From Terriglobia bacterium (GTDB lineage Bacteria > Acidobacteriota > Terriglobia > UBA7540): 64,000 nucleotides of DNA. The stretch is from contig JBELAJ010000001.1 in NCBI GenBank assembly GCA_049508935.1, positions 6,002-70,001 of the forward strand. Reading direction: 5' to 3'. Below the pieces are notes generated by a model. That model did no database searches, was not told the origin of the DNA, and was given only the letters and a program-made list of their open reading frames with translations. Below, piece by piece: positions 37,506 to 62,373 of the stretch (its first letter is position 1; each line of letters begins with the position of its first letter). The translations under genes and the position numbers were made by a program.

Positions 37506-37547
37506 TCCTAGTTGTGTCAACTGTCGCCAGAAAGCGGTGCCAAGCAG

Positions 37548-39649: not shown

Positions 39650-40308
39650 TCAAACTGAGCCTCGCGGGAAAAGACGCCGATCCCCTGACTGTGCTCTGTA
39701 TCGGCGCTCACGCGGATGACATCGAGATCGGGTGCGGTGGGACTGTGTTGTACCTAACACACGCCCTGTCCCGGGTAAAGTTTCATTGGGTGGTTTTTAG
39801 TACCCCAGGTCCCCGCCGTCAGGAAGCATGGGAGGCTGCCGAGCTGTTTACGAAGGGGTGCGAAAAGGAAGTCGTTCTAGAGGACTACCGGGATGGGTTC
39901 CTACCCTACAGCGGGGGCCAGTTGAAGGATTTCTTCGAGAAGATGAAAGGTCAAGTAAACCCGCATTTGATTTTCACCCCCTGGCGCGGAGATGCGCACC
40001 AGGATCACCGCCTGCTGGCAGAGCTTGCTTGGAACACCTTTCGAAACCATTTGATTTTGGAATACGAAATTCCGAAATACGACGGCGACATGGGTCGTCC
40101 TAATCTATTCGTTCCTCTTGATGCGCCGTTATACGAACACAAGGTCGAATATTTACTCCAGGCGTTTAAGTCTCAGCGCGTCAAACCATGGTTTGACCGG
40201 GAGACCTTTTTGGGCCTGACGCGTATCCGGGGCATGGAGTCAAACTCCCCCAGCGGGCACGCGGAGGCCTTTCACGTGCGAAAGGCAGTCCTTCAAGCAG
40301 GCGTTTGA
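39646..40308 (+). CDS. PIG-L/LmbE-family deacetylase
   Basis: LCIGAHADDIEIGCGGT, and HQDHR. GTGA overlap with the rfbF stop. Confidence 0.8.
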   Translation: MIKLSLAGKDADPLTVLCIGAHADDIEIGCGGTVLYLTHALSRVKFHWVVFSTPGPRRQEAWEAAELFTKGCEKEVVLEDYRDGFLPYSGGQLKDFFEKMKGQVNPHLIFTPWRGDAHQDHRLLAELAWNTFRNHLILEYEIPKYDGDMGRPNLFVPLDAPLYEHKVEYLLQAFKSQRVKPWFDRETFLGLTRIRGMESNSPSGHAEAFHVRKAVLQAGV

Positions 40309-40322
40309 CGGAAGAATCCAAG

Positions 40323-46836: not shown

Positions 46837-48261
46837 ATGAACGGTAAGCGAATGCCACAACTCCCGCGCCTTTCCTCCCAGCGCCCAATTCGTCGAGTTG
46901 GGTTCATCAGTCCATACACCGGCGGCAACTTAGGGAACGCGGCGATCATAACCGCCGCAATCGAGAATATACAGAAGCGCATTCCTGGCGTCGAAATTGT
47001 GGGCATTACCCTAAACCCTGAGGATACCGCCCGCCGGCATGGAATTGAGGCATTTCCGCTAGCGCAACTGTCGATCCCCTTATACTCCCTTGTGGCTTCG
47101 AGCAGTTACAGCGTGGTTCCGCAACAGAGTCTTGCGGCGTCGCGGATCAAACGATGGCTAAGACGGATTCCCTTGCCGGGCCGGAGCAAGAGAGCCCTGC
47201 GTACGTGCGCTACGGAAGTGGCCCATATCGTCAGCGCGGCGCGTTTAGTCCGTCGAATAGATCTCCTCATCGTCCCCGGCGGCGGTGCCCTAGACGATTT
47301 CTGGGGCGGGCCATGGGGGCATCCGTGGGCGCTGTTCAAGTGGAGTGTACTCAGTCGCGTGTACAAAGTGCCATTTGCCTTTATCAGCGTCGGGAAATGC
47401 GTTCTGCAGCGGCCGCTGAGCCGCTTCCTCGTCCGTGTCGCACTACGAATTGCGAGTTATCGTTCCTATAGAGACATAGCTTCGAAGGCGGTCGTACAAG
47501 CGTTGATTCATGCACCCAACGACCCGGTGTACCCTGATCTGGCGTTCAGCGGAACTAATCGAGTCTTGCAGAATTCGGCGCCTTTGGCTCCCAAGCCCGA
47601 TCATCTTCGGATTGGATTCAGCCCGATCGCATATTGCGACCCGCGCTCGTGGCCTCGTAAGGATGAGCGGCGATTCGCCACCTATGTCAGCCAACTGGCA
47701 GAAATGCTGAAGTATCTTCTACACCAGCATCACCGGGTCCTGTTTTTCACTACTGACGGCCCCGATTCTGCCGTTGTTAACGATCTGAGACTTACGATCT
47801 CTGGTATGCCGGTAGATAGTGACAGTGTCGAGGTTCTTCCCGCATCCCAAGATGTGAGCGTTGATCGTTTTCTGAAAGACACATGGCGACTCGATTTGAC
47901 AATCGCGAGCCGGCTGCATGGAGTTATTCTGTCCCATCTCAACGCCACGCCGGTGCTTGCCATCTCCTTCGATCCGAAGGTTGACGCATACATGAGTGCC
48001 GTCGGCCAGAAAGACTACTGTTTGAGTATTGACCACTTGGATTCGAAAGAGTTAGTGGACCGCTTCGAGGCGCTCGCATGCGCCCGCGAGCAGGTACGGG
48101 AACACCTGCGTTCCCAAATACTCCAGTTTCGTCGTGCTCTAGATTTGCAGTACGACCGCGTTTTCGGTACGACCTGTCCAACTTCAATTTCAAGCGATAA
48201 CCAGGATCAAGTGGATCATGTTTTCAAAGTGTTGAACCGTATCAGTTTGCATATCAATTAG
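46837..48261 (+). CDS. polysaccharide pyruvyl transferase family protein
   Basis: VGFISPYTGGNLGNAAI, LLIVPGGGALDDFWGGPWGHP, FISVGK, and ASRLHGVILS...PVLAISFDPKV. Confidence 0.75.
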   Translation: MNGKRMPQLPRLSSQRPIRRVGFISPYTGGNLGNAAIITAAIENIQKRIPGVEIVGITLNPEDTARRHGIEAFPLAQLSIPLYSLVASSSYSVVPQQSLAASRIKRWLRRIPLPGRSKRALRTCATEVAHIVSAARLVRRIDLLIVPGGGALDDFWGGPWGHPWALFKWSVLSRVYKVPFAFISVGKCVLQRPLSRFLVRVALRIASYRSYRDIASKAVVQALIHAPNDPVYPDLAFSGTNRVLQNSAPLAPKPDHLRIGFSPIAYCDPRSWPRKDERRFATYVSQLAEMLKYLLHQHHRVLFFTTDGPDSAVVNDLRLTISGMPVDSDSVEVLPASQDVSVDRFLKDTWRLDLTIASRLHGVILSHLNATPVLAISFDPKVDAYMSAVGQKDYCLSIDHLDSKELVDRFEALACAREQVREHLRSQILQFRRALDLQYDRVFGTTCPTSISSDNQDQVDHVFKVLNRISLHIN

Positions 48262-48361: not shown

Positions 48362-49999
48362 GTGCAATCAGCGGCAGAGTTGAGGGAGAGCGTGCCCCCA
48401 AAAATCGACAGTCCGGACGCCATAGTAATCGGTTCTGGCGCAGGCGGCGGTGTCATTGCCAAGGAATTAGGCGAAGCGGGTTTGACGGTCGTGGTATTGG
48501 AGGCTGGAAAGCGCTATCGTCCCTATGATGACTATCCCACTCATCTCGTCGATTTCGAGGCTCGCGCAGAGGACGTTTTTGCCCCTCAAGATTGGCGGCG
48601 CGATCAATATACGTCTGCGGCAACGCCTCCCTTTTTGTATAGCCGCGTCAAGGGACTCGGCGGATCGACGCTCGCGTATCACGCTATGTCGCCCAGACTG
48701 CACGAGTCCGATTTTCGTACAAGAACTGAAGACGGGGTTGGGGATGACTGGCCGATCAGTTATGCACATCTGGAGTCGTACTACACAAGAGTCGAGTACG
48801 AGTTGGGAGTTTCGGGACCAGACGGGGATGCCGCCAACCCGTTTGAGCCACCTCGCTCGCGGCCCTTCCCAACCCCACCCCACCCGTTCAACCTTGTAAG
48901 CCGGGCAATCAAGCGTGGGGCGGACAAGCTGGGCTTGCACTTGGTCCGCGAACCGCTAGCGATTCCCACGCAAGATTGGAACGGACGGCCAGCCTGCATC
49001 AACGCCGGCACGTGTCGCCTGGGCTGCAAAATATCAGCAAAATCGAGCATCGATGTCACCTACATCCCCAGTGCCGAAAGAACCGGCCGGGTCCGATTCC
49101 GCACCGAATGCATGGCTCGAGAAATCACGGTCAGACCGGACGGCAGAGCCCGCAGTGTGATCTACTTTGCCCCAGACGGTCACGAAGAGGAGATCTCCGC
49201 GCGCGTGATCGTGGTGGCGGGAAATGCCATTGAGACGCCGCGCTTGCTTTTGTTAAGCAAATCAAGCTTGTTTCCCGACGGATTGGCTAATTCCAGCGGA
49301 CTCGTTGGCAAACGCCTTGCCGAGCATTTGTCGGTGTTCGCTCACGGTATGTCCTCTGAACGCGTCGACTCTTGGCGCGGTGTGCCTACCGGCGGAATCA
49401 TTCAGGATTATTACGCCACCCAGCCCGCCAATGGGTATGCGCGGGGATATACGATCGGCGTCGAAATGGAACCGCAGTGGCCATTCGCGACGGCCCGCGA
49501 GATTCCCGGTTGGGGAGCCGAACACAAGGCACGAGTGAAACAGGCGTTTGGTCACCTGCTCGGTTTGGCGACGGATGGTGAACAATTGCCGGATGAAAGG
49601 AACCAGGTACGGCTCGATCCCTCGGTCAAGGACAGTTACGGGCTCCCGGTCCCGCTGATTGAACTGCGGTGCTATCGCAACGATCTCGCGATGATTGATG
49701 CCATTGCGGTGAAGCTGAAGGAGATCCTTAGTGCGGCCGGCGCTTCGGACATAAGAGTTCGGCAGTTCAAACCCGGAGCTTCTTCGCACTATCTTGGAAC
49801 TTGTCGAATGGGCAAGGATCCCAACACGTCGGTGGTGGATTCGTGGTGCCGAGCCCATGACGTTCCCAATTTGTTCGTCGGAGACGGAAGCGTGTTTGTA
49901 ACGGGGGGCGCTGTAAATCCCGCCTTGTCCATCTCGGCCGTTGCTTTGAGAACGGCTGAGGCGATCATTGCCGCTTTCCGGCACGGCGAATTCCCATGA
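48362..49999 (+). CDS. GMC-family FAD-dependent oxidoreductase
   Basis: DAIVIGSGAGGGVIAKELGEAGLTVVVLEAG (FAD ADP-binding fold), GLGGSTL.Y, and the C-terminal HYLGTCRMG. GTG start is uncertain. Confidence 0.8.
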   Translation: MQSAAELRESVPPKIDSPDAIVIGSGAGGGVIAKELGEAGLTVVVLEAGKRYRPYDDYPTHLVDFEARAEDVFAPQDWRRDQYTSAATPPFLYSRVKGLGGSTLAYHAMSPRLHESDFRTRTEDGVGDDWPISYAHLESYYTRVEYELGVSGPDGDAANPFEPPRSRPFPTPPHPFNLVSRAIKRGADKLGLHLVREPLAIPTQDWNGRPACINAGTCRLGCKISAKSSIDVTYIPSAERTGRVRFRTECMAREITVRPDGRARSVIYFAPDGHEEEISARVIVVAGNAIETPRLLLLSKSSLFPDGLANSSGLVGKRLAEHLSVFAHGMSSERVDSWRGVPTGGIIQDYYATQPANGYARGYTIGVEMEPQWPFATAREIPGWGAEHKARVKQAFGHLLGLATDGEQLPDERNQVRLDPSVKDSYGLPVPLIELRCYRNDLAMIDAIAVKLKEILSAAGASDIRVRQFKPGASSHYLGTCRMGKDPNTSVVDSWCRAHDVPNLFVGDGSVFVTGGAVNPALSISAVALRTAEAIIAAFRHGEFP

Positions 50000-50126: not shown

Positions 50127-52634
50127 ATGACAGAAGTGGCCGAAAATCGGACCCCCATCCGGTGGCAGCACTATACCGGTATTTTCCTGATCTCGTTGGC
50201 TACGCTGCTGCTGGAACTCGCTTTGACACGCGTGCTCTCGGTGGCCAATTGGTATCACTTTGGTTTCCTGGTGATTTCCACTGCCTTGCTCGGATATGGC
50301 GCATCTGGCGTGGCTCTGTCGATTTGGACAAAGCTACGCGAGGAGATGCCGCTTGATCTGGCGCTGACTTCACTGGCGCTGATCTTTGCATTTGTCACTC
50401 TAGCCAGCTTCTGGCTGATGCAACGCATTCCTTTTCAGCCTTTCAGCCTGCTCTTCCACCGTTCGGAACTTGTCTACGGACTGCTGTATTTCGTGGTGCT
50501 CGCGGCGCCGTTTTTCTGCTCCGGCCTGGCGGTCTCTCTGCTTCTCAGCCGTGGGGGGCGGAAAGTCAATCGGCTCTATGCCGCCGACTTGGTCGGCGCC
50601 GGCCTGGGGTGCGCGGCCGTGTGCGGTACGATGCCGGTTTTTGGGGGATCCGGGTCGGTCGCGGTCGCGGCGTTCCTCGGAGCGCTGGCGGCCTTAGCGT
50701 TTAGCTCTTTCCGGTTGTCGAAGCTGACTCTCTTCGGCGGCGTGGCGGCCGTGGGAATGCTGTCGCTGGCGTTCGTAGCCGAACACGCGCTGCCCATCAG
50801 GGTGATACCCGAAAAGCACAATCATCCTCTCTTTCCTGCGGGACGCTCACCGATCTATACGAAGTGGAATGCGTTTTCAAAGATCGACGTCTACGAAGCG
50901 CCGGCGCCGGACGAAAGCCGGTCCGATAGCGCCTTTTACTCTATCATCATCGATGGTGGAACCGCCGGGACCGGCATTGTGGATTTGAGTAAAGGTGTGC
51001 GCAACTACCTCGCCCATTCGCCGCAATACCATCCTGCCGGGGTGGAGTATGTTGGCAAGGAGCACCCCAAGGTGCTCATCATCGGCCCCGGGGCGGGGCG
51101 TGAGGTCCTGGAGGCCTTGTACTTCAGCGCGACCTCCATTACGGCCGTGGAGATCAACCCGATAATAACCGACATCGTTAGCCGGCGCTTGCGCGAGCAC
51201 TGGGGTGGGCTCTACGAACAACCCGAGGTGCGGCTGGTAACGGACGATGGCCGCAGCTTCGTCCGCCATTCGAAGGAGAAGTACGACGCGATCATCTCCG
51301 TTAATACCTATAGCCAAACGGCCCTCACCTCCGGCGCGCTCACTCTCAGCGAAAGCTACATCCTGACCCGTGAGGCATTCGAAGATTATTGGAACCATCT
51401 CACTCCCAGCGGCACCCTGCTGGTGATGGGCTACAACATCGGAAAGCTCCTCGCTACGACGCGTGAAATGTTCGACCATCTGGGGCTGGGCAGTCCTGCC
51501 GGCCACGTTTTCGCGTATCGAGGGCTGGGAGCACCCTTCGGCCACACGCGGATGAACATAGGATTGGTGATCCAGAAGTCGCCGCTAGGCACGGAAGAAG
51601 TCGACGCGATGGCCATGCGCGCGGGAATCGGCAGCCAGCAGGATTGGGGTAATGAAGGCCAGCCTGAGATTTACTATTCGCCGTTCGCAAAGCCGACTAA
51701 GGGTCCCCAGACCTTCTTTGCCAGTATCCTGAAAGCCCCGGATCTGGAGATGGTTTACGGCTCCACCTCCGAGTATCTCCGCCCAGCTACCGACGACAGG
51801 CCATTTTTCAACCAGACCGAGCGTTGGTCGAGACACCTTGGTTTCCGTAGGGTGCTCAGCGCAGGGGCAGAAGTAATGACACAACCGGTCGCCCAAGTGA
51901 TTTTGGTGATCCTGCTACTCCAGGCAGTAGCGGTGGCGGGAGTACTGATCCTTCTCCCGCTGGCTTGGTTCGAACGGAAGGGCCTGCAAGCCCGCGGATG
52001 CTGGCGGTTCCTCGCGTACTTTGCCAGTTTGGGCCTGGGATTCATCCTGATTGAGATCGTGCTTCTGCAGCGCTTTCAATTGTTTCTGGGAGAACCAATC
52101 TACACCTTCTCGATCGTCCTGTCTAGCCTACTTATCTTCACCGGCGTCGGATCCTACTTGGCGGGACGGGTAGAAGATCTCTCCAGGGACAGACTCACCT
52201 GGTTTTTGCTGGTCCTGGTCGGGACCATCCTGCTGACCTTAGCTGTCATGCCAGGGATTTTGTCGTTGGCGCTTGGTCTCGCACTGCCGCTTCGAGTCGC
52301 AATCGCAATCTCTTTGGTTGCCCCGCTGGGCATGCTGCTTGGAGTTCCTTTTCCGACAGGATTACGCATTGTCGGTGAGCAAGCCTCGCCTCTGGTACCA
52401 TGGGCATGGGCGGTCAACGGTTTCTTTACCGTGATCGGCTCTGTTGCAGCCATGATTTTGGGAATGGTCGTGGGTTTCACTTACGTGCTCGTCATCGCGG
52501 CAGGCTGTTACGCAACGGCATTGATCGCGATTCGCGGGGTCCAGCCTCACGGTGTGGCACTCGCAGAGGTTCATACGGGGAAGCCCCATGCTGAACGGCT
52601 GGCCCGATTACGCGCGCCCGACACAGTCGGATGA
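50127..52634 (+). CDS. polytopic membrane protein with an embedded spermidine-synthase-like (class I MT-fold) domain
   Basis: About 7 TM helices, then VLIIGPGAGREVLEAL, ITAVEINP, VTDDGRSFV and YDAIIS, then about 7 more TM helices. 835 aa. Confidence 0.7.
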   Translation: MTEVAENRTPIRWQHYTGIFLISLATLLLELALTRVLSVANWYHFGFLVISTALLGYGASGVALSIWTKLREEMPLDLALTSLALIFAFVTLASFWLMQRIPFQPFSLLFHRSELVYGLLYFVVLAAPFFCSGLAVSLLLSRGGRKVNRLYAADLVGAGLGCAAVCGTMPVFGGSGSVAVAAFLGALAALAFSSFRLSKLTLFGGVAAVGMLSLAFVAEHALPIRVIPEKHNHPLFPAGRSPIYTKWNAFSKIDVYEAPAPDESRSDSAFYSIIIDGGTAGTGIVDLSKGVRNYLAHSPQYHPAGVEYVGKEHPKVLIIGPGAGREVLEALYFSATSITAVEINPIITDIVSRRLREHWGGLYEQPEVRLVTDDGRSFVRHSKEKYDAIISVNTYSQTALTSGALTLSESYILTREAFEDYWNHLTPSGTLLVMGYNIGKLLATTREMFDHLGLGSPAGHVFAYRGLGAPFGHTRMNIGLVIQKSPLGTEEVDAMAMRAGIGSQQDWGNEGQPEIYYSPFAKPTKGPQTFFASILKAPDLEMVYGSTSEYLRPATDDRPFFNQTERWSRHLGFRRVLSAGAEVMTQPVAQVILVILLLQAVAVAGVLILLPLAWFERKGLQARGCWRFLAYFASLGLGFILIEIVLLQRFQLFLGEPIYTFSIVLSSLLIFTGVGSYLAGRVEDLSRDRLTWFLLVLVGTILLTLAVMPGILSLALGLALPLRVAIAISLVAPLGMLLGVPFPTGLRIVGEQASPLVPWAWAVNGFFTVIGSVAAMILGMVVGFTYVLVIAAGCYATALIAIRGVQPHGVALAEVHTGKPHAERLARLRAPDTVG

Positions 52635-53859: not shown

Positions 53860-55617
53860 ATGCTCCATTTTCTGCATCATCTTTTGCACCCCCTCAAGGT
53901 GCTCTGGGCAGAGCGCATTGCATTGTTCTGGCCATTCTGGACCCTGACAACCTGCCTTAGCGCGATGGCGGTGACTTGGGTGGTCCCGAGAAAAAAGACC
54001 ATCACTCAGGAGTCGACGCAGACCCGGCGGTACGGGTGGTCACGCGACGCCTACCTTGCGTTAGGCTTCTTGATTCTGTTCTTGGCCTGCTTCATTGCGA
54101 TGTCTCTTGTAAGAGAAGACTTTACATACTACGACGATTCCCACTTTACGAACGAAACGTTAGCCGGCCGTAACGTTTCCGTCCAGATCTGGCCGGAAGG
54201 CGGACGTCTCCAGCCGCTTATCCTTCAGGAATTTAATCTTCTTCGTCATTTCACCCGCTCAGTCACTGGCTATCATTCGTTGCGCATCGTTGAACTGCTG
54301 CTATTGTCTGTGATTCTCCTGGTGCTTGACGAGGAGTTGAGTATCAAGGCCCGGGTAGGTTTAATCGCTCTGGTTCTCATTACGCCGAGCATTCTGACCA
54401 GCTTGAGCGGACTCGTTTATTCAGAGGCGAACATTGTTTTTTGTCTGGTCTTTCTTGTGTGGTTCGTTAAACGGTTCGAGCGCACGCGTTCAATCGCCTG
54501 GGCGGTGGCTGCGGTGATTTCTTCCCAGTTCATGCTCTATTACAAAGAAACCGCCTTTCTGTTGGTCGTGGGATTCGCCACTGGGCGACTCCTTCTGCGT
54601 TGTTGGAACACACAACAGGCGGGCTGGGACTTCGGCCGGCTGCGAGACCCGGAAAGTCGTCTCGACATGTGCCTTGCCCTTCTGGTAGTGCCATTCTTCC
54701 TTTACTTTTTTGCAGCCATGTTTCCAATTTACGGAATGGGCTACGCTAGTGAGTTTCGGCTGTCAGTCAAACAGGTTTTTCTTTTGTACTTTAAGTTGGA
54801 TCTCCTGGTATGGGCGCTCGCTGTCGTCGTGTTAGTCAGAGTCGCGCAGATCCTGCGGCGAAAGGTCACCCCTGCCTTGCTGTGGGACGGGCTGGCTCTG
54901 GCGGGCATAGGTTATTTCTCCGGATACCTCATCCTGAGGATATACAGTGCTTACTATCTCGCACCTGTGGATCTTATCGCTGTCCTATATCTTGGGCATC
55001 TTATGATCCCGTCAATCAAGAACATGGGCCGCCTAACAAAATGCTGCGCTCTAGCGCTGCTGTGCCTCGTCGGGCTGCAGGACCTCTCACTTTCGGCGTT
55101 TCGGATGTATGAGAAAAAAAACGTTATGCACGCCAAGGCCGAAATGGGCCAGATGATCGCAGGTTGGTATCGGAGCGATCCGGAAAAAGTAAAGCGGCTT
55201 TATTTCCCGTTTGCCACCCCGTTCCACATACTAGAATTTGCCTCGTATCTGAACTATCTAGGCGTCCCGGTAGAGCAAGACCCCACTGACTCCCCTACTG
55301 CTCGTAGCGTCTTGCTGGCGGGCAAGGTTATCCAGAAGGATGGTCCCTGCGGTTACAGGAAGTTCATCTGCCACCCAGGCGGCCACCCAGATCCTGGCGA
55401 CCTTACGGTAGTGTTTCCTGACGATCCCACGCGTGCTGATGACCTGGTTCCGTTTAAGCAGGAACACGTCGAACGGATTTTTTACTATCAGCCCAGACCC
55501 ACGATTCCTTCCTGGCTGTATCCGTACGTAGCGAGTCTGCATGTGGTCTCGCCGGTATTTCCAAGGAGCCAGCTTCCGGGCTTTTGGCTTAACGCTCAGG
55601 TAGCTGTCTGGCACTGA
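53860..55617 (+). CDS. polytopic membrane protein, possibly a GT-C fold (ArnT/PMT-like) glycosyltransferase
   Basis: 585 aa with about 11-13 hydrophobic helices. The first predicted loop carries an acidic YYDDSHF motif. The C-terminal ~130 aa are soluble. No stronger signature was seen. Confidence 0.35.
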   Translation: MLHFLHHLLHPLKVLWAERIALFWPFWTLTTCLSAMAVTWVVPRKKTITQESTQTRRYGWSRDAYLALGFLILFLACFIAMSLVREDFTYYDDSHFTNETLAGRNVSVQIWPEGGRLQPLILQEFNLLRHFTRSVTGYHSLRIVELLLLSVILLVLDEELSIKARVGLIALVLITPSILTSLSGLVYSEANIVFCLVFLVWFVKRFERTRSIAWAVAAVISSQFMLYYKETAFLLVVGFATGRLLLRCWNTQQAGWDFGRLRDPESRLDMCLALLVVPFFLYFFAAMFPIYGMGYASEFRLSVKQVFLLYFKLDLLVWALAVVVLVRVAQILRRKVTPALLWDGLALAGIGYFSGYLILRIYSAYYLAPVDLIAVLYLGHLMIPSIKNMGRLTKCCALALLCLVGLQDLSLSAFRMYEKKNVMHAKAEMGQMIAGWYRSDPEKVKRLYFPFATPFHILEFASYLNYLGVPVEQDPTDSPTARSVLLAGKVIQKDGPCGYRKFICHPGGHPDPGDLTVVFPDDPTRADDLVPFKQEHVERIFYYQPRPTIPSWLYPYVASLHVVSPVFPRSQLPGFWLNAQVAVWH

Positions 55618-56675: not shown

Positions 56676-57473
56676 ATGAGCTTAAGACTCTTTAGCCAGG
56701 TGAACGGTGATGGTGATCTTATCGAAGCCTGGCTGAACTATTACCTCCGGCTCGGCGTAAATCGGTTCCACCTGATTGTTCACGGACCTCCGGCGGAGAA
56801 CGAGAAGCTGCTATCCATCAAAGATTCTTATCCGATTACCATCGAGGACACTTATGACGGCCCGTTCCCCGCGCCACTAGACCCCGACAGACCGACCTAC
56901 ACCGAAAAGAAAAAGCGGTTGGATGCTTTGCTCGCTCGCCACACTGAACAGTGGGTAATGTTGGTGGACAGCGACGAGTTTGTCGAGTTCCCGTACGACG
57001 ATATTCTGGCAACCATCCATAAGCTTGAATTGGCAAAGGCCAACTTAATGGCTGCTCCCCTGCTCCAGCGGATGACTGCTGATGGATTGCTTGAAACTCC
57101 GCCCGAAATTGACGACCCTTTCGAAGCGTTTCCGCTATGTTCCCTAAACCTCTATAGAAGGATGGGTATCAGGGCTGAGATTTTTAAGTAGCCGCTTTTC
57201 TACTGCGTGAGTGGTGCCGAACTCGTAGAAGAAGGTAACCATTACCCTCCACTGGGATTCGAATCCAGGGATGCTGGAATACTTGGGGTTACCCACCACT
57301 TTAAGTTTCGCCGGACTGTTTCGCGGCGTCCCGAGAAGCGCATCAATAGCCCCCATCTCTGGCGCTTCGAATCGCTCGGGTTTCAAGATTACTTGCAGAC
57401 CCATCACAGCCCCGTGCCTTTTGAGGGGTCATTTCCCTATCGCCGGGAAGAGCTTTCAGGAGGCGATTGTTGA
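56676..57473 (+). pseudogene. disrupted N-terminal GT-A-like domain of the upstream copy of a duplicated bifunctional glycosyltransferase
   Basis: Collinear with residues 1-~265 of the 58803..60974 product. It carries an in-frame TAG at 57189-57191 where the intact copy has TTT, and a 1-nt deletion near 57455 (gagctttcagg versus gagctattcagg) that shifts the frame. Confidence 0.7.
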
Positions 57474-58792
57474 GGCAACTGCCTGTGCCGAAGCTTGGTT
57501 GTCAGGCATCGAGTGCTCAGTTACCAGTCGAGTGCCCTGGGATTACTGCACCTGCGCTCGAAAGTAAGAGGAAAGCCGCAACTCCCGGAGGAAAAAAACC
57601 CGTAACTTTACTCAAGCACGACGGCAGAAAAATAATGTTTGTACTTCCCAGGTCCATGGGACTCGGTGGCCTTGAACGACACCTACTTGAGCTACTTCGC
57701 AGGCTGCCGGAACCACTCCTGCCTCCAATAGTCATCTGCTATGATCACGACTTCATCACGGCGCGCATGGACAAAGATCAGCAGGCGCGAGTGGTCGTGA
57801 AGTGCGTGAGGGAACCGCAATCGTTGCGGGATTGGCTGCGAATCATAAGAGAAAACAACCCGCATATCATCGTTTTCGATTATAGCTGGATCGAAGCATT
57901 TCCCTGGCAAGCATCGGTGGCTTCATTGTTAGCTGGCGTTCGGAAGCGTATATCCATCCAGCACCTGATTCCGCCCCCGCTGCCACCGCCAGTCCCGGGC
58001 AAGTCGCCGCGTGACCGGCTGCGGCGTTTGATTGGCCGGCGAGCGCGGCAAGTGCTAAAGGTGAAAATCTCAGCGAGGATCTCCGGCTCTGTCTCTCATA
58101 ACACAGTTTGCGTGAGCAATGCTGTCCGAGATGCCTTGGTGAAGATTTACAGATTCCGAGCTCGAAAGACAGTCGTCATTTACAATGGTGTTTCCAGCTC
58201 GACTTTCGTCCCCTCGAAGACGAACGGGGCGGCAGTGCGGGAACGACTCGAAATAGACCCCAATGAATTTCTCCTGGTATGTTCGGCCAGGCTGGACCCA
58301 CCCAAAGGACTCGACATCCTGGTTCATGCGGTCTCTCGCGTAGTTCGCCAGGGCATACCCTGCAAGTGCATCATCATCGGTGAGGGACCGCTGAAAGCAG
58401 AGTTAATTCGGCTGGTGAATTCCCTAGGGTTATCTTTCCACGTGTTTTTTGAGGGATTTCAGCAAGATGTGCGGCCCTATCTTCAGGCTGCTTCTGCTTT
58501 CATTCTCACCTCCCATCTGGAAGGCATGCCAATTTCCGTTTTGGAAGCTATGGCCTGCGGCCTGCCATGCATTGTTACAAACGTCGGTGGCAGTGCGGAA
58601 ATCGTCGAGGACCAGGTTACCGGTCTGGTGATCCCGCCGGCATCCGTGGAAGCGGCCGCCGACGCGATCTTGTACCTCGCGACTAACCCTGACAAGCGTG
58701 ACGAGATGGCAAGCAAGACTCGCGAAACCGTGTGTGAGTCCTTCGATATCGAGAAGAAAATGGCTGAACTGATAAGCATCATAAGTCGTTGA
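57467..58792 (+). CDS. GT4 glycosyltransferase domain ORF (C-terminal half of the upstream duplicated copy; may be expressed alone from ATG 57635)
   Basis: MFVLPRSMGLGGLERHLLELL, and an intact E-x7-E in ILTSHLEGMPISVLEAMACGLPCIV. The frame differs from the N-terminal remnant. Confidence 0.6.
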   Translation: MLRQLPVPKLGCQASSAQLPVECPGITAPALESKRKAATPGGKKPVTLLKHDGRKIMFVLPRSMGLGGLERHLLELLRRLPEPLLPPIVICYDHDFITARMDKDQQARVVVKCVREPQSLRDWLRIIRENNPHIIVFDYSWIEAFPWQASVASLLAGVRKRISIQHLIPPPLPPPVPGKSPRDRLRRLIGRRARQVLKVKISARISGSVSHNTVCVSNAVRDALVKIYRFRARKTVVIYNGVSSSTFVPSKTNGAAVRERLEIDPNEFLLVCSARLDPPKGLDILVHAVSRVVRQGIPCKCIIIGEGPLKAELIRLVNSLGLSFHVFFEGFQQDVRPYLQAASAFILTSHLEGMPISVLEAMACGLPCIVTNVGGSAEIVEDQVTGLVIPPASVEAAADAILYLATNPDKRDEMASKTRETVCESFDIEKKMAELISIISR

Positions 58793-58802
58793 CGAGTTTC
58801 CA

Positions 58803-60974
58803 ATGAGCTTAAGAATCTTTAGCCAGGTAAACGGTGATAGCGACATCATCGAAGCGTGGTTGAACTACTATCTCCGCCTCGGCGTGAATTGGTTCCACCT
58901 GATCGTTCACGGGCCTCGGGCGGAGAACGAAAGGCTCCTGGCTATCAAAGATTCCTATCCGATTACCATAGAGGACGCTTACGACGGGCCGTTCCCCGCG
59001 CCGCTCAGTCCTGACAGACCCTATGAGACCGAAAAGAAGAAACGGCTGGATGCTTTGCTCGCCCGCCACACGGGACAGTGGGTACTGTTGGTGGACAGCG
59101 ACGAATTTGTCGAGTTTCCCTACCAAGACATTCCGGCGACCATTGAGAAGCTTGAATCTGCGAACGGCAATCTAATGGCTGCTCCCATGCTCCAGCGGCT
59201 GACCGCTGACGGATGGCTCGAAACTCCGCCCAAAATTGACGACCCTTTCGAAGTGTTTCCGCTGTGTTCCATGGACCTCTATAGAAGGATGGGTGTCAAA
59301 GCCGAGATATTTAAGTTTCCGCTTTTCTATTGCGTGAGCGGTACCGAATTGTTCGAAGAAGGTAACCACTACCCTCCGCTGGGATTCGAACCCAGGGACG
59401 CTGGAATACTTGGGGTTACCCACCACTTCAAGTTTCGCCGGATTTTTTCGGGGCGTCTTGAAAAGCGTATCAACAGTCCCCATCTCTGGCGCTACGAATC
59501 AGTGGGGTTTCGAGATTACTTGCAGGGTCATGCGGGCCGCGTGCCTTTTGAGGGCACCTTTCCTTATAGCCGGGAAGAGCTATTCAGGAGGCGATTGTTG
59601 AGGCAATTGCCCGTATCGAAACCTGCTGGTCAGAACTCCAAAGCCCCATTGGCAGTTGAACCCCGGACGATTCCTGCCAACGCGTTTGAAAGTACAAAGA
59701 AAGTCGCAGTTCGCCGGGACGGTAAACCCGTAGCTGCACCCAAGCCCGGCGGGAAGAGAACCATGTTCGTTCTTCCGAAGACCACGGAATTCGGCGCCCC
59801 TGAACGAAGCCTACTCGAGCTGTTGCGCAGACTTCCGGAACCACTGCTGCCTCCACTCATCGTTTGCTTTGGCCAGGACATCATCACCGCACACCTGGAT
59901 GAAAATCAGCAGGCGCAAGTGATCGTGAAATGCGTAGAGGAACCGCAGTCACTGTGGGATTGGATCCGGATCATACGAGAAAGCAAGCCGGATATCATAG
60001 TGTTCGATTATTGCCGGATCGAGGCATTTCCCTGGCAAGCTCCCATCGCTTCATTGTTAGCCGGCGTAGGGAGACGTATATCCATTCAGCGTTTGATATC
60101 GCCGCTGCCATCGCCGGTCCCAGGCAAGTCACCGCGCGACAGGCTGCGGCGTTGGATCGGGCGGCGCGCCCGGTACGTACTGAGAGCGAAGATCTCAGCG
60201 AGGCTCATTGCCCACGTCTGTAGCAAGACCGTTTGCGTGAACGAGGCGGTCCGAGATGCCCTGGCAAAGATTTATGGATTCCCCGCTCGAAAGACAGTCG
60301 TCATCTTCAACGGAGTCTCCACTTCGAACTTCACCCCCTCGCAGACCAATCGGGCGGCCGTGCGGGCACGATTGGATATAGACTGCGAGGAATTTCTTCT
60401 GGTGTGTGCGGCAACGCTTGCTGAGGCCTCAGGACTCGACATCCTGATTCGTGCGGTCGCCCGCATAGTTCACCAGGGCGTACCCTGCAAGTGCATCATC
60501 ATTGGTGATGGACCCCTCAAAGCTGAGTTGATTCGGCTGGTGAATTCCCTGGGATTAGCTTTCCACGTGTTTTTCGAAGGAAATCAGAAAGATGTGCGGC
60601 CCTATCTTCACGCCGGCTCCGCTTTCATTCTCACCTCCACGAGAAGCATGCCGATCTCCATTTTAGAAGCTATGGCCTGCGGCCTGCCGTGCATCGTTAC
60701 CAACCTCGATGGCAGTGCCGAAATCGTAGAGGATCACGTTTCCGGTCTGTTGATCCCGCCTGGGTCTGTGGAGGCGGCCGCCGACGCAATCTTGTCCCTC
60801 GCGACTAATCCTGACACGTGTGCTGGGCTGGCCGGCAAGGCCCGCGAAGCTGTGTGTAAGTCCTTTGATATCGAGCAGACAATGCCCGAACTCATACGTG
60901 TCATAACTAATTCAGCTATGCCCGAAAAACCGAGGTGCGGCCCGAGCGCTTCTCCGAAAGACGTTCGAATCTGA
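58803..60974 (+). CDS. bifunctional glycosyltransferase: N-terminal GT-A-like (GT2/GT92-like, DSDEF) domain fused to a C-terminal GT4 domain
   Basis: 723-aa uninterrupted ORF. N-domain IIEAWLNYYLRLGVNWFHLIVHG...LLVDSDEFVEF. C-domain GT-B with ILTSTRSMPISILEAMACGLPCIV, where the first Glu of E-x7-E is replaced. Confidence 0.75.
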   Translation: MSLRIFSQVNGDSDIIEAWLNYYLRLGVNWFHLIVHGPRAENERLLAIKDSYPITIEDAYDGPFPAPLSPDRPYETEKKKRLDALLARHTGQWVLLVDSDEFVEFPYQDIPATIEKLESANGNLMAAPMLQRLTADGWLETPPKIDDPFEVFPLCSMDLYRRMGVKAEIFKFPLFYCVSGTELFEEGNHYPPLGFEPRDAGILGVTHHFKFRRIFSGRLEKRINSPHLWRYESVGFRDYLQGHAGRVPFEGTFPYSREELFRRRLLRQLPVSKPAGQNSKAPLAVEPRTIPANAFESTKKVAVRRDGKPVAAPKPGGKRTMFVLPKTTEFGAPERSLLELLRRLPEPLLPPLIVCFGQDIITAHLDENQQAQVIVKCVEEPQSLWDWIRIIRESKPDIIVFDYCRIEAFPWQAPIASLLAGVGRRISIQRLISPLPSPVPGKSPRDRLRRWIGRRARYVLRAKISARLIAHVCSKTVCVNEAVRDALAKIYGFPARKTVVIFNGVSTSNFTPSQTNRAAVRARLDIDCEEFLLVCAATLAEASGLDILIRAVARIVHQGVPCKCIIIGDGPLKAELIRLVNSLGLAFHVFFEGNQKDVRPYLHAGSAFILTSTRSMPISILEAMACGLPCIVTNLDGSAEIVEDHVSGLLIPPGSVEAAADAILSLATNPDTCAGLAGKAREAVCKSFDIEQTMPELIRVITNSAMPEKPRCGPSASPKDVRI

Positions 60975-60975
60975 A

Positions 60976-62373
60976 ATGAGCGATGACACAAACATGCTAT
61001 TGATGAAGGAACGGGTGAGTTCGCCGAGCTCCGGACATGCCTCGGGAGATTCTATGCAGCAATCTCAGGCTGTCATCATTGTAGGGCCGCCTTGGCCAAG
61101 GAGCGGAACGGCGCGGCTGCTGCGTAATCAAATCAATTATTATCGCCAACGCGGATTCTTCACAACTTTCATCTCGGTTCCGTTCTCGTGGTACCTTGTT
61201 AGCCCGGATCAAGGCTCCAAAAAGACAGCCGAAGGGATGGACGAACTGGGCGCAGATCGCATGCTCTCAGCGACTCTTGAACAGAAGCGCTACAACGCAG
61301 CGAAGTATAAAACCTCGGTTCGCCATGCTTTCCGTGGTACGGTACTCGATTGGCAAGTCGCTCTGGGGAGAGCCGCTCGGCTAGGCGACGAAGATATTAA
61401 TTTTCTGGCTAAACTGCCGGTTGCCCTGTTTAATGTCAATCACGTCTTCACGCTTGGCTTCGCCCTGGATTTGCGTAAACGGCTGTTTGGCCGAAGTTGC
61501 ACTCTGCCGATCATTCTCGAGACGCACGATGTTCAGTCGTACCTTCTTCAACACAGGGGCGATCGTAATCCCTGGACGCGCCGGCCTGACCGGCTGGAGC
61601 GGCTGATCAAATCCGAGGCGGCGCTCCTCGAGAAGGCTAACGTTCTCATTCACCTTTCTGCGGACGATTTCGGGTTTTTCCAGGCATTGAGGCCTTCAAA
61701 ACCTCATTTCCTTGCCTTCCCTACGATTGAGGAGAGTTTTGCCCGCGCTGTCAGTAGCGCGAACGAGCCGGCTGAGCGCATCGATCTATTGTTTCTAGGC
61801 GCATGGCATCGTGCCAATTTTGAGGCTGTGAAGTGGTTTCTCGAAGAGGTCTGGCCGTTGATTGCCGATCGCCAATATAACTTAAAGATCGTTGGCTACA
61901 TTGAATCGGTAGTTCGACGCGATCTGCCGCGATTGTACGAGGCCTTCCGCTCCTGCTTTGTCGGTGAAGTGCCGGATTTGATTCCCTATTATCGTGCAGC
62001 GCGATGTGTCATCGCTCCCATGGTTTCGGGTACGGGCATTTCCATTAAAACGATTGAAGCCCTGGCCCTTAGCAAACCTTTCGTCGGCACATCCAAGGCG
62101 TTTCGTGGCATGCCGATGGATCGCCTGAAAGCGTCGGGAATTCAAGCCCATGACAATGCTAAGGAGTTTGCGGATGCGATCGTCCGCACCCTTTACGACG
62201 AGGAAGAGGCCCAAGCGCGCAGTCGAGCCGCTTATGATAGCGTCTTTTCTACTCAAGCCTCTTTCGCGGTGCGCGATGAGGCGCTGCGGGCTGCGACCAC
62301 TTCGCCGGAACCCATGCCGTTGTTGCGCCGGCTGACTCATCGAGCCCTGCGCATACTGAAAGAGAGCAAGTGA
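60976..62373 (+). CDS. GT-B fold glycosyltransferase (GT4-like)
   Basis: C-terminal VIAPMVSGTGISIKTIEALALSKPFVGT resembles the group-1 GT nucleotide-sugar binding region. The N-domain is divergent. Confidence 0.55.
   Translation: MSDDTNMLLMKERVSSPSSGHASGDSMQQSQAVIIVGPPWPRSGTARLLRNQINYYRQRGFFTTFISVPFSWYLVSPDQGSKKTAEGMDELGADRMLSATLEQKRYNAAKYKTSVRHAFRGTVLDWQVALGRAARLGDEDINFLAKLPVALFNVNHVFTLGFALDLRKRLFGRSCTLPIILETHDVQSYLLQHRGDRNPWTRRPDRLERLIKSEAALLEKANVLIHLSADDFGFFQALRPSKPHFLAFPTIEESFARAVSSANEPAERIDLLFLGAWHRANFEAVKWFLEEVWPLIADRQYNLKIVGYIESVVRRDLPRLYEAFRSCFVGEVPDLIPYYRAARCVIAPMVSGTGISIKTIEALALSKPFVGTSKAFRGMPMDRLKASGIQAHDNAKEFADAIVRTLYDEEEAQARSRAAYDSVFSTQASFAVRDEALRAATTSPEPMPLLRRLTHRALRILKESK

What the first reader, a model, noticed from the sequence alone, without database searches (positions are those of the whole stretch)
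56676..60974. Tandem duplicate of a bifunctional GT-A+GT4 glycosyltransferase with reciprocal domain decay
Seen: two ~2.1-kb direct copies lie 10 bp apart.

Upstream copy:
- The N-terminal GT-A-like domain is broken twice, by an in-frame TAG at 57189-57191 (TTT in the other copy) and a 1-nt deletion near 57455 (gagctttcagg versus gagctattcagg).
- Its GT4 half is an open frame (57467..58792, internal ATG at 57635) and keeps the canonical E-x7-E motif (HLEGMPISVLEAM).

Downstream copy:
- It is one uninterrupted 723-aa ORF with an intact N-domain (DSDEF).
- In its GT4 half, the corresponding stretch is one codon shorter and reads TRSMPISILEAM, so the first Glu of E-x7-E is replaced (tcccatctggaaggcatg versus tccacgagaagcatg).

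Established: the E-x7-E glutamates are commonly important for retaining GT4 activity.

Inference: this is complementary degeneration after duplication. Copy 1 would supply the GT4 activity and copy 2 the GT-A activity, which amounts to fission of a fusion enzyme in progress.
Basis: partly seen in the sequence, partly recalled or inferred. Interest (0 to 1): 0.65.

Follow-up and report, generated by a model that had tools for sequence, protein, structure and literature searches.

The report
Duplicated two-domain glycosyltransferase splitting in two
Two neighbouring copies of a two-domain sugar-transferase gene in a soil acidobacterial polysaccharide locus have each lost a different half (one to a stop codon and a frameshift, the other to loss of its catalytic residues), which is a clean but unsurprising bacterial example of a fused gene splitting by duplication and complementary loss.

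Summary
Two 2.1-kb direct copies, 79.9% identical, lie 10 nt apart. Copy 1 has a TAG at 57189-57191 and a 1-nt deletion after 57454. Copy 2 is an intact 723-codon ORF. The lesions are not assembly errors, because the same 4,299 nt occur unchanged in contigs from four separately assembled samples.

About 107 fused orthologs from Acidobacteriota polarise the changes.
- Copy 1's GT4 half keeps every signature: the GG loop, Arg-x4-Lys and E-x7-E.
- Copy 2 has lost four of them (GA, Thr, Ser, Arg) but keeps an intact GT-A half.
- Evolutionary rates are reciprocally skewed between the two copies.

The interpretation needs correcting.
- The duplication is old (dS about 0.5).
- Copy 2's GT4 is disabled but not decaying. 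Its frame stays open, and the loss is shared with relatives P0002 and P0109.
- P0002 is a single-copy hybrid of a copy-1-type N-domain and a copy-2-type GT4.
- Copy 1's lesions are recent, and TAG arose from TAT, not TTT.

Whether copy 1's GT4 ORF is expressed is inferred, not shown. Fused, split and duplicated arrangements of these modules are common in the family, so this is an ordinary case of a known process.

The parts
56676..57191 (+). Copy 1, N-terminal GT-A fragment ORF (171 codons, DSDEF at 56967-56981), ending at the premature TAG
57189..57191 (+). Premature stop TAG at codon 172. Relatives of copy-1 type (P0002, L040) have TAT (Tyr) and copy 2 has TTT.
   Evidence: reproduced in independent assemblies
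57192..57454 (+). Copy 1, untranslated remnant of the GT-A domain (THHFKF at 57291-57308). It carries private radical replacements L219P, R246P and S256R.
57454..57455 (+). Site of the 1-nt deletion (copy 2 has an A at 59582). It shifts the frame at the end of the N-domain.
   Evidence: reproduced in independent assemblies
57458..57472 (+). AGGAGG (57458-57463) followed by TTG at 57467 (spacer 3) and TTG at 57470 (spacer 6). This is a candidate ribosome-binding site and start for a stand-alone GT4 product.
   Evidence: The same bases occur in frame in copy 2 and are not conserved at synonymous sites in the family, so this is an opportunity, not proof.
57467..58792 (+). Copy 1, open GT4 frame (441 codons, alternative ATG at 57635). 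It keeps the Gly loop LGGLERH (57662-57682), ARLDPPKG (58286-58309) and the E-x7-E stretch TSHLEGMPISVLEAM (58508-58552).
58793..58802 (+). 10-nt spacer between the two copies
58803..59657 (+). Copy 2, intact GT-A-fold N-domain (DSDEF at 59094-59108, THHFKF at 59418-59435)
   Evidence: Pfam; AlphaFold2 model with pLDDT 89.7; Foldseek hits all GT-A fold
59658..59765 (+). Copy 2, poorly conserved inter-domain linker (low-confidence in the model, dN/dS about 0.8)
59766..60917 (+). Copy 2, GT4-like domain with its donor-binding signature lost: FGAPERS (59790-59810), ATLAEASG (60411-60434) and TS-TRSMPISILEAM (60633-60674). The frame is open and still under constraint.
60918..60974 (+). Copy 2, 18-codon C-terminal extension. 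The position of the family's usual stop (TGA in copy 1) reads TCA. The ORF ends 1 nt before the next gene.
60976..62373 (+). Downstream GT4-like gene (465 aa). Its orthologs follow the split or duplicated modules in L009 and L039, so it serves as a synteny anchor.

Best explanation
Setting: the genes lie in an ABC-transporter-type (Wzt) polysaccharide biosynthesis locus of a soil or peat acidobacterium. The locus carries an old tandem pair of genes that both descend from a fused GT-A + GT4 glycosyltransferase.

Copy 2 (downstream) lost the GT4 residues that hold the nucleotide-sugar donor long ago. These are the Gly loop, Arg, Lys and the first Glu of E-x7-E. It keeps the domain as a conserved, probably non-catalytic module, and it supplies the GT-A activity.

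Copy 1 (upstream) thereby became the only source of this GT4 activity. Its own GT-A half was redundant and was recently destroyed by a TAT-to-TAG nonsense mutation and then a 1-nt deletion.

The GT4 half of copy 1 is most likely still made as a stand-alone enzyme from the internal frame 57467/57470-58792. The locus would then deliver the two activities on two polypeptides, which is gene fission by duplication and complementary degeneration.

Shown:
- the lesions and that they are real;
- the polarity of the motif losses;
- the reciprocal rate asymmetry;
- the age and order of the events.

Inferred:
- that copy 2's GT4 is catalytically dead;
- that copy 1's GT4 is translated and active.
For: Lesions are real and reproducible.

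Ancestral states come from 107 fused orthologs: Arg in 90, Lys in 95, Glu1 in 100 and Glu2 in 101 of 107. Copy 1 reads R/K/E/E plus GG. Copy 2 reads T/S/R/E plus GA.

Literature (PMC8760489): the first Glu contacts the donor sugar, the second the ribose, and conserved Arg/Lys stabilise the nucleotide sugar. E-to-A mutants of TviE are inactive.

Conserved-column departures:
- GT4: copy 1 at 0 of 103, copy 2 at 9 of 103 (p=0.003).
- N-domain: copy 1 at 8 of 117, copy 2 at 4 of 117.

Relative-rate tests: copy 2's GT4 has roughly twice as many unique changes as copy 1's with all six outgroups (p from 0.0001 to 0.07). Copy 1's N-domain is faster than copy 2's with all six.

Within copy 1, private amino-acid states number 4 of 113 in the region after the TAG (L219P, R246P, S256R at conserved sites) against 1 of 355 in GT4 (Fisher p=0.013). 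The GT4 half has therefore been more constrained than the dead part.

A strong AGGAGG precedes TTG 57470 by 6 nt.

Syntenic loci in relatives, all upstream of the same 465-aa gene, also encode one working N module and at least one working GT4 module:
- L039: N-only 277 aa, then GT4-only 407 aa that is 74% identical to copy 1's GT4.
- L009: a fused gene, then a GT4-only gene.

Stand-alone GT4s are scattered through the GT4 tree, so loss of the N-domain is recurrent and viable.
Against: There are no expression data.

The N-domain lesions are recent. dN/dS between copy 1 and P0002 over codons 1-125 is 0.10. An open 1.3-kb GT4 frame is therefore expected even if the whole copy died with the TAG, with P(no stop) of 0.64-0.80 at d of 0.01 or less.

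The private-state contrast rests on 4 events against 1.

The AGGAGG-TTG is also present in frame in copy 2 and is not conserved at synonymous sites in the family.

P0002 (L007) and L040 carry a single hybrid gene with the disabled GT4 and no adjacent copy-1-type GT4. A lineage can therefore do without that activity, at least in a different cluster context.

In some GT4 enzymes one Glu of E-x7-E is expendable.
Confidence: 0.55

Rival explanations
1. Copy 1 is simply a dead gene from end to end. The TAG abolished translation of everything downstream, and the GT4 half has not yet had time to collect lesions. The locus works with copy 2 alone, as a GT-A enzyme with a non-catalytic GT4-like domain. 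This is the same arrangement as the single-copy P0002-type genes.
For: - The pseudogenisation is recent, so an intact GT4 ORF carries little information.
- P0002 and L040 are single genes with a copy-1-type N-domain and a disabled copy-2-type GT4.
- The family repeatedly loses GT4 motifs while DSDEF and THH stay invariant. This suggests the GT-A half is the indispensable one.
- No dedicated start signal has evolved.
Against: - Copy 1's GT4 departs at 0 of 103 conserved columns and has 1 of 355 private states, against 4 of 113 in the region after the TAG (p=0.013).
- AGGAGG lies 6 nt before a TTG at the domain boundary.
- Syntenic relatives L039 and L009 always retain an intact GT4 of this type beside the N module.
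Confidence: 0.3
2. Copy 2's GT4 domain is still an active transferase that uses non-canonical residues. On this reading there is no complementary loss. Copy 2 is fully bifunctional and copy 1 is a redundant duplicate on its way out.
For: - The domain's frame is kept open, with branch dN/dS of about 0.3.
- The second Glu is retained.
- The importance of each Glu varies among GT4 enzymes (PMC8760489).
Against: - Four separate donor-binding features are lost together: the Gly loop, Arg, Lys and Glu1.
- Copy 2's GT4 evolves about twice as fast as copy 1's.
- In the closest pair carrying the same kind of loss (P0002 and P0109), the C-lobe has dN/dS of 0.69.
- The PF00534 score drops from 149.5 to 112.4 bits.
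Confidence: 0.08
3. The stop codon and frameshift are sequencing or assembly errors, or they are bypassed by recoding, so copy 1 is really a full-length bifunctional gene.
For: None found. Some Nanopore-derived MAG loci of the family (L024, L026, L027) do show multiple frame breaks that could be errors.
Against: - The sequence is identical in contigs from four separately assembled samples and three pipelines.
- TAG terminates 10 of 46 ORFs in the window.
- Two independent lesions would both need bypassing.
- No slippery heptamer sits at the deletion site.
- Radical private replacements have accumulated after the TAG.
Confidence: 0.02
4. Origin rival, which is compatible with the functional models above. 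The pair did not arise by a local tandem duplication in this lineage. Instead, a second and already diverged allele from a related acidobacterium was inserted or recombined next to the resident gene.
For: - The genes are mosaics. Copy 1 codons 1-125 are 92-93% identical in nucleotides to P0002. P0109's linker is 86-90% identical to copy 2, its mid-GT4 is closest to copy 1, and its C-lobe is 94% identical to P0002.
- The domain trees conflict with each other.
Against: - The copies begin at the same ATG and are separated by only 10 nt, as expected for tandem duplication.
- P0002's N1-G2 structure is what a deletion by recombination between a tandem N1-G1/N2-G2 pair would give. That implies the tandem pair was already present in a common ancestor.
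Confidence: 0.2

Closest known systems
Gene fission by duplication-degeneration (Drosophila monkey-king; Wang, Yu & Long 2004 Nat Genet, as cited in PMC3258039), a domain-level case of the DDC subfunctionalisation model (Force et al. 1999, from my own knowledge)
   Same: A fused multi-domain gene is duplicated. Each copy then loses a different module, so the two modules end up in separate genes.
   Different: - This case is in a bacterium, in tandem within an operon-like cluster.
- One loss is by nonsense mutation and frameshift. The other is only the loss of catalytic residues, with the domain retained.
- The two losses are far apart in time.
- Function of both survivors is not demonstrated.
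CAZy family GT4 retaining GT-B glycosyltransferases (BshA 2jjm/5d00, PimB', TviE, TarM)
   Same: Copy 1's C-terminal half matches them. BshA is the best solved relative (E=5e-21), with E-x7-E aligned. Copy 1 also has the Arg-x4-Lys spacing of TviE R406/K411.
   Different: - The donor and acceptor are unknown.
- It is ancestrally fused behind a GT-A domain.
- Copy 2's version lacks the signature.
GT-A-fold glycosyltransferases of Pfam PF13704 (Glyco_tranf_2_4); structural neighbours SunS, LARGE1, SpsA and WrtF
   Same: Pfam hits are above the cut-off. The DxD motif (DSD) is present. The AlphaFold2 model's Foldseek hits are all GT-A or nucleotidyl-transferase folds.
   Different: The structural similarity is only distant (TM 0.3-0.43, 8-15% identity). 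There is no sequence-level match in the PDB. The family has not been characterised.
Enzyme plus non-catalytic glycosyltransferase-like partner pairs, such as GtfA-GtfB of serine-rich-repeat adhesin glycosylation (PMC6973325) and IRX9 in xylan synthesis (PMC4132061, title and abstract only)
   Same: A glycosyltransferase-fold module that is retained without catalytic activity, next to an active paralog.
   Different: No interaction between copy 2's domain and copy 1's GT4 has been shown. Here the dead module is fused to an active GT-A domain.
Modular, multi-domain glycosyltransferases of ABC-transporter-dependent O-antigen and EPS pathways (for example WbdA-type and WbbB-type enzymes; from my own knowledge)
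   Same: Several GT modules are fused in one polypeptide, within a Wzt-containing cluster.
   Different: This specific GT-A(PF13704)+GT4 architecture is confined mostly to Acidobacteriota MAGs and has not been studied.

Membership tests
GT4 (retaining GT-B glycosyltransferase) | Two Rossmann-like halves recognised by PF13439 and PF00534/PF13692 | tested here: met
   Copy 1 scores 44.4 bits (PF13439) and 149.5 bits (PF00534). Copy 2 scores 33.9 and 112.4 bits. All are above the cut-offs.
GT4 (retaining GT-B glycosyltransferase) | E-x7-E motif in the C-terminal half | tested here: met
   Met for copy 1 (HLEGMPISVLE, aligned to the BshA motif). NOT met for copy 2, where the first Glu is replaced by Arg and there is a one-codon deletion. 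The ancestral state is Glu in 100 of 107 orthologs.
GT4 (retaining GT-B glycosyltransferase) | Basic Arg/Lys pair that stabilises the donor diphosphate, and the N-terminal Gly-rich loop | tested here: not met
   This status applies to copy 2: ATLAEASG and FGAPERS. Copy 1 meets the feature with ARLDPPKG and LGGLERH. The role of the Arg/Lys pair is taken from PMC8760489.
GT4 (retaining GT-B glycosyltransferase) | Measured glycosyl transfer with retention | not testable with these tools
   Needs biochemistry.
GT-A fold glycosyltransferase (Pfam PF13704, clan GT-A) | Profile match above the gathering score, and a DxD motif | tested here: met
   One search gives 36.5 and 33.7 bits against a cut-off of 27.5. 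DSDEF is invariant in the family.
GT-A fold glycosyltransferase (Pfam PF13704, clan GT-A) | GT-A three-dimensional fold | tested here: met
   The copy 2 N-domain model has pLDDT 89.7 and pTM 0.87. The top 42 Foldseek PDB hits are GT-A glycosyltransferases or related nucleotidyl-transferases, at E down to 4e-6 but with TM of only 0.3-0.43.
GT-A fold glycosyltransferase (Pfam PF13704, clan GT-A) | Complete, translatable domain | tested here: not met
   This status applies to copy 1. It has a TAG at codon 172, before the invariant THH strand, and a frameshift at codon 260. Copy 2 is complete.
Duplication-degeneration gene fission (DDC at domain level) | Both copies descend from a fused ancestor | tested here: met
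   Both copies align over both domains. There are 107 fused orthologs.
Duplication-degeneration gene fission (DDC at domain level) | Complementary, copy-specific loss of different modules after the duplication | tested here: met
   Copy 1's lesions are unique to it. Copy 2's motif losses are restricted to the copy-2-type clade. Rates are reciprocally skewed.
Duplication-degeneration gene fission (DDC at domain level) | Both surviving modules are expressed and required | not testable with these tools
   Only indirect evidence is available: the constraint contrast within copy 1 (p=0.013), the AGGAGG-TTG signal, and syntenic split loci. Counter-evidence: the single hybrid P0002.
Enzyme/pseudo-glycosyltransferase pair (GtfA-GtfB-like) | Non-catalytic GT-B module maintained by selection | tested here: inconclusive
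   Copy 2's frame is kept open (P at most 0.0025 under neutrality at d of 0.2 or more), and its branch dN/dS is about 0.3 (derived). However, the P0002/P0109 C-lobe has dN/dS of 0.69.
Enzyme/pseudo-glycosyltransferase pair (GtfA-GtfB-like) | Physical and functional partnership with the active paralog | not tested
   No complex prediction or experiment was done.

The most novel reading that the evidence does not exclude
Copy 2's catalytically dead but conserved GT4-like domain is a dedicated non-catalytic partner of copy 1's active GT4, acting as a scaffold or acceptor-binding module. The duplication would then have created an enzyme/pseudo-enzyme heterocomplex tethered to a GT-A enzyme. On this reading the family as a whole toggles repeatedly between fused, split and pseudo-domain states, as a way of rewiring polysaccharide assembly lines in Acidobacteriota.
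Probability: 0.12. Interest if true: 0.5.

Novelty: new member of a known kind. Interest (0 to 1): 0.3.

Why it matters
If the two survivors are both functional, this locus is a rare caught-in-the-act bacterial example of a fused enzyme gene being split by duplication and complementary loss, rather than by a single frameshift. The order of events can be read from relatives. It also flags an uncharacterised GT-A(PF13704)+GT4 enzyme family that is abundant in soil and peat Acidobacteriota. In that family the GT4 half repeatedly loses its catalytic signature while the GT-A half never does. That pattern is a practical warning for annotating such genes as "bifunctional", and for predicting the structures of acidobacterial exopolysaccharides. 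It does not change any general concept. Modular shuffling and pseudogenisation of glycosyltransferases in polysaccharide loci are commonplace.

Tried and rejected
1. Assembly error or recoding. Rejected: the sequence is identical in independent assemblies, TAG is a normal stop, and there is no slippery site.

2. A conserved internal ribosome-binding site at the domain boundary across the family. Rejected: the FRRRLL codons vary freely (CGC AGA CGA, CGC CGC GGG and so on), and AGGAGG is found only in this window and L010.

3. Using the open GT4 frame of copy 1 as proof of selection. Rejected as uninformative, because the lesions are recent.

4. PDB sequence search for the N-domain. There was no meaningful hit. 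The fold was identified only through the AlphaFold2 model and Foldseek.

5. A search with copy 1's conceptual protein for a closer, intact copy-1-type ortholog. Nothing closer than P0002 (74%) turned up.

6. A metagenome DNA scan across the TAG with copy-1/P0002-shared flanks. It returned only a P0002-type contig (L040, with TAT), so there is no information on polymorphism.

7. The idea that copies 1 and 2 are recent in-paralogs. Rejected by dS of about 0.5 and by trees giving {c1, c2} bootstrap support of 0-3, except in N-domain codons 173-285 where it reaches 69.

8. Frame breaks in MAG loci L022-L024, L026 and L027 as independent natural fissions. I did not rely on these, because several are long-read MAGs where indel errors are plausible.

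9. Literature search for bacterial duplication-degeneration fission. No directly comparable case was found in the held library.

Full report
**1. What is in the sequence**

Three ORFs cover the interval on the + strand:
- 56676..57191, 171 codons, ending in TAG;
- 57467..58792, 441 codons, TTG start, with an ATG at 57635;
- 58803..60974, 723 codons.

The repeat finder reports direct copies spaced 2122-2128 nt apart. A global alignment of 56676-58802 against 58803-60974 gives 1694 identities in 2121 aligned positions, which is 79.9%.

The same alignment shows the following:
- TAG at 57189-57191 lies opposite TTT in copy 2.
- A single base is missing after 57454 (GAGCT-TTCAGG versus GAGCTATTCAGG).
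- There are two in-frame 3-nt indels, at 57974-57976 and 58514-58516.
- A 10-nt spacer separates the copies.
- Copy 2 has 54 extra nt at its 3' end.

Pfam places PF13704 (Glyco_tranf_2_4) at residues 13-107 of both N-terminal parts. It places the GT4 pair PF13439 + PF00534 in both C-terminal parts, with copy 1 scoring higher (149.5 against 112.4 bits for PF00534).

**2. The lesions are real**

The 723-aa protein is on record on 23 contigs. The complete 4,299-nt stretch is 100% identical in contigs from JGI 3300041412, Logan SRR13201562, Logan SRR13201976 and ENA ERZ27250065. That stretch includes the TAG and the deletion, and the contigs come from different samples and assemblers.

TAG is used as the stop of 10 of 46 ORFs in the window. 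There is no slippery heptamer at the deletion. Assembly error and recoding are therefore rejected.

**3. What the two domains are**

An AlphaFold2 model of copy 2 residues 1-290 is confident up to residue 276 (pLDDT 89.7, pTM 0.87). Its Foldseek neighbours in the PDB are all GT-A-fold glycosyltransferases or related nucleotidyl-transferases, such as SunS, LARGE1, WrtF and SpsA. E-values go down to 4e-6, but TM-scores are only 0.3-0.43. A PDB sequence search found nothing.

The TAG of copy 1 falls at codon 172. That is before the strand carrying the invariant THHFKF motif, so the 171-aa fragment lacks the C-terminal third of the fold.

Copy 1's C-terminal half is most similar to BshA among solved structures (2jjm, 3mbo, 5d00; E about 5e-21), with the E-x7-E stretch aligned.

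**4. Polarising the changes**

A protein search found about 110 full-length (roughly 680-760 aa) fused relatives. In named genomes they occur almost only in soil and peat Acidobacteriota MAGs, including Ca. Acidoferrales, Terriglobia and Acidobacteriaceae. The best named genome is only about 63% identical.

Across 107 full-length members:
- The N-domain motifs DSDEF and GVTHHFKFR are essentially invariant.
- The ancestral GT4 signature is EFGGLERH ... ARLxxxKG ... SHLEGLPxSVLEAM.
- Arg is present in 90, Lys in 95, the first Glu in 100 and the second Glu in 101 of the 107.

Copy 1 has all of these features. Copy 2 reads GAPERS, ATLAEASG and TS-TRSMPISILEAM. It has therefore lost the second Gly, the Arg, the Lys and the first Glu.

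According to PMC8760489:
- The first Glu contacts the donor sugar and the second contacts the ribose.
- A conserved Arg/Lys pair stabilises the nucleotide sugar. In TviE these are R406 and K411, with the same spacing as here.
- Either E-to-A change inactivates TviE, although in some GT4 enzymes one Glu is expendable.

Loss of four such residues together makes canonical donor binding by copy 2's GT4 very unlikely. This is an inference.

**5. The asymmetry is reciprocal and measurable**

Departures from family columns conserved at 90% or more:

| Domain | Columns | Copy 1 departs | Copy 2 departs | Fisher p |
|---|---|---|---|---|
| GT4 | 103 | 0 | 9 | 0.003 |
| N-domain | 117 | 8 (including the stop) | 4 | not significant |

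Tajima-type relative-rate counts used six different outgroups.
- In GT4, copy 2 has 43-56 unique changes against 21-30 for copy 1 (p from 0.0001 to 0.07).
- In the N-domain the direction is reversed, with 18-27 for copy 1 against 10-12 for copy 2 (p from 0.008 to 0.26).

**6. Age and order of events**

Synonymous divergence between the copies is about 0.5 in every domain (NG86: 0.565 in N, 0.552 in the linker, 0.537 in GT4). This is not a recent duplicate.

The copies are also not each other's nearest relatives. In neighbour-joining trees with 100 bootstraps:
- The N-domains group as {c1, P0002, P0121} with support 96, inside {c1, c2, P0002, P0121} with support 99.
- The GT4 domains group as {c2, P0002, P0109} with support 92, with c1 outside.

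Sliding-window nucleotide identity shows mosaics:
- Copy 1 codons 1-125 are 92-93% identical to P0002.
- P0109's linker is 86-90% identical to copy 2.
- P0109's C-lobe is 94% identical to P0002.

P0002 is thus a hybrid of a copy-1-type N-domain and a copy-2-type GT4. That is the product expected if a tandem N1-G1/N2-G2 pair collapsed by recombination, which would place the pair in a common ancestor.

The Lys-to-Ser change uses TCN codons in c2, P0002 and P0109, two substitutions away from AAA. The P-E-R-S string is shared by c2 and P0109. The GT4 degeneration of the copy-2 lineage therefore began before these lineages split. The first Glu was then lost in different ways, by deletion plus Arg in c2 and by Gly in P0002 and P0109.

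Copy 1's lesions, by contrast, are private and recent.
- dN/dS between copy 1 and P0002 over codons 1-125 is 0.10.
- Codon 172 is TAT in P0002 and L040, so TAG is one step from Tyr, not from the Phe of copy 2.

**7. Copy 2's GT4 is disabled, not decaying**

Its 367 codons contain no stop or frameshift. Under neutral substitution alone, the chance of that is 0.0025 at d=0.2 and 0.0005 at d=0.3.

I derived three-taxon branch estimates by hand from the values, with P0003 as outgroup. They give dN/dS of about 0.31 for copy 2's GT4 and about 0.27 for copy 1's.

Some relaxation is nevertheless visible.
- Copy 2's GT4 has 8 private states in 355 sites, against 1 in copy 1's (p=0.038).
- The closely related disabled C-lobes of P0002 and P0109 differ with dN/dS of 0.69, based on 44 differences.

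"Reciprocal domain decay" is therefore accurate for copy 1's N-domain. For copy 2's GT4 the better description is catalytic loss with retention of the domain.

**8. Is copy 1's GT4 still a gene?**

Evidence for:
- It shows no departure at conserved columns.
- Within copy 1, the stretch after the TAG carries 4 private states in 113 sites. Three are radical changes at conserved positions (L219P, R246P, S256R). GT4 carries 1 in 355 (Fisher p=0.013; p=0.017 for conserved sites only).
- AGGAGG (57458-57463) lies 3 and 6 nt before the TTG codons at 57467 and 57470. It is one of the best Shine-Dalgarno matches in a window where only 16 of 46 ORF starts have any such match.

Evidence against, or neutral:
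- The same AGGAGG-TTG bases sit in frame in copy 2 and are not conserved synonymously in the family.
- Because the lesions are young, an open frame is expected anyway (P of 0.64-0.80).
- There are no expression data.

**9. Family context**

All ORFs of 220 codons or more that are not nested inside a longer one lie on the + strand. The annotated ORFs of the window's second half form a polysaccharide locus with sugar-nucleotide modification genes, a Wzt-type ABC transporter ATPase, a pyruvyl transferase and many GT2/GT4 genes. In the longer contig L001 a LuxC/LuxE/acyl-ACP module follows.

In relatives, the N and GT4 modules occur in many arrangements:
- fused only;
- fused followed by a GT4-only gene (L009, L017, L020);
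- N-only, then fused, then GT4-only (L021);
- N-only alone (L028-L034);
- N-only followed by GT4-only (L039).

In L039, a 277-aa N-only gene is followed by a 407-aa GT4-only gene that is 74% identical to copy 1's GT4. These sit directly upstream of orthologs of the window's 465-aa gene (66%) and 361-aa gene (73%). L009 has the same 465-aa ortholog after its GT4-only gene.

Stand-alone GT4s are scattered among fused ones in the GT4 tree. Loss of the N-domain has therefore happened repeatedly and gives viable genes.

A set of more distant fused members has also lost GT4 signature residues while keeping DSDEF and THH.

Against this background the window's pair is one more state of a very plastic module system.

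**10. Verdict**

Complementary loss after duplication is real, but it is old and sequential, and one "loss" is a retained non-catalytic domain. The functional status of copy 1's GT4 is inferred.

The closest concept is gene fission by duplication-degeneration (Wang et al. 2004, cited in PMC3258039). A possible parallel to enzyme plus non-catalytic GT partner pairs such as GtfA-GtfB (PMC6973325) remains speculative.

Limits of the analysis:
- The trees are neighbour-joining on corrected p-distances.
- dN/dS values are pairwise NG86 or YN00.
- The counts behind several tests are small.
- The outgroup tests are not independent of one another.
- Recombination blurs the branch estimates.

Noticed in passing
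L007 4171-6285 (P0002); L040; L008 (P0109): P0002 is a hybrid of a copy-1-type N-domain and a copy-2-type GT4, as if a tandem pair had collapsed by recombination. P0109 is itself a three-part mosaic: a c2-like linker, a c1-like GT4 N-lobe and a P0002-like C-lobe. These genes recombine frequently between paralogs and lineages.
   Followed up: partly
window 60918-60974: Copy 2 carries an 18-codon C-terminal extension. The position of the family's stop (TGA in copy 1) reads TCA. The ORF now ends 1 nt before the start of the next gene (60976).
   Followed up: partly
family alignment (P0087-P0113): More distant fused family members have independently lost various GT4 signature residues (Gly loop, Arg, Lys, Glu1 or Glu2). 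The GT-A motifs DSDEF and THHFKF are never lost. The GT4 half seems repeatedly dispensable as a catalyst.
   Followed up: partly
L039 3285-5528; L021 6001-10257; L009 466-3991: Relatives encode the same two modules in other arrangements. L039 has N-only plus GT4-only genes and is syntenic with the window. L021 has N-only, then a fused gene, then GT4-only. L009 has a fused gene plus GT4-only.
   Followed up: yes
L022, L023, L024, L026, L027: Several MAG loci show the fused gene broken by frameshifts between or within domains. These could be further natural fissions or long-read indel errors, and the two cannot be told apart here.
   Followed up: no
window 1-64000: All ORFs of 220 codons or more that are not nested inside a longer ORF lie on the + strand across the whole 64-kb window. 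The annotated part is one very long co-directional polysaccharide locus. It includes Wzt ABC ATPase (44729-46036), pyruvyl transferase (46837-48261), GMC oxidoreductase (48362-49999), a C-methyltransferase (37512-38831), an aminotransferase (40305-41684) and an apiosidase-like secreted protein (42596-44644).
   Followed up: partly
window 50127-52634 and 53860-55617: An 835-aa protein has only a weak spermine-synthase-like domain. A 585-aa protein, hydrophobic by inspection of its sequence, has no Pfam match. At the same relative position L010 has a PMT_2 protein. Both look like uncharacterised components of the glycan machinery.
   Followed up: no
window 35083-36435: A DUF4910/DUF2172/HTH_47 protein (aminopeptidase-like with a winged helix) is embedded among the sugar-nucleotide genes. 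Its role in the cluster is unclear.
   Followed up: no
window 57458-57472 and 59586-59600: The conserved peptide FRRRLL at the domain boundary is encoded here as TTC AGG AGG CGA TTG TTG. That spells a perfect AGGAGG followed by TTG codons, and it occurs in both copies. It arose by chance from Arg and Leu codons and is available as an internal start only where the upstream frame is broken.
   Followed up: yes
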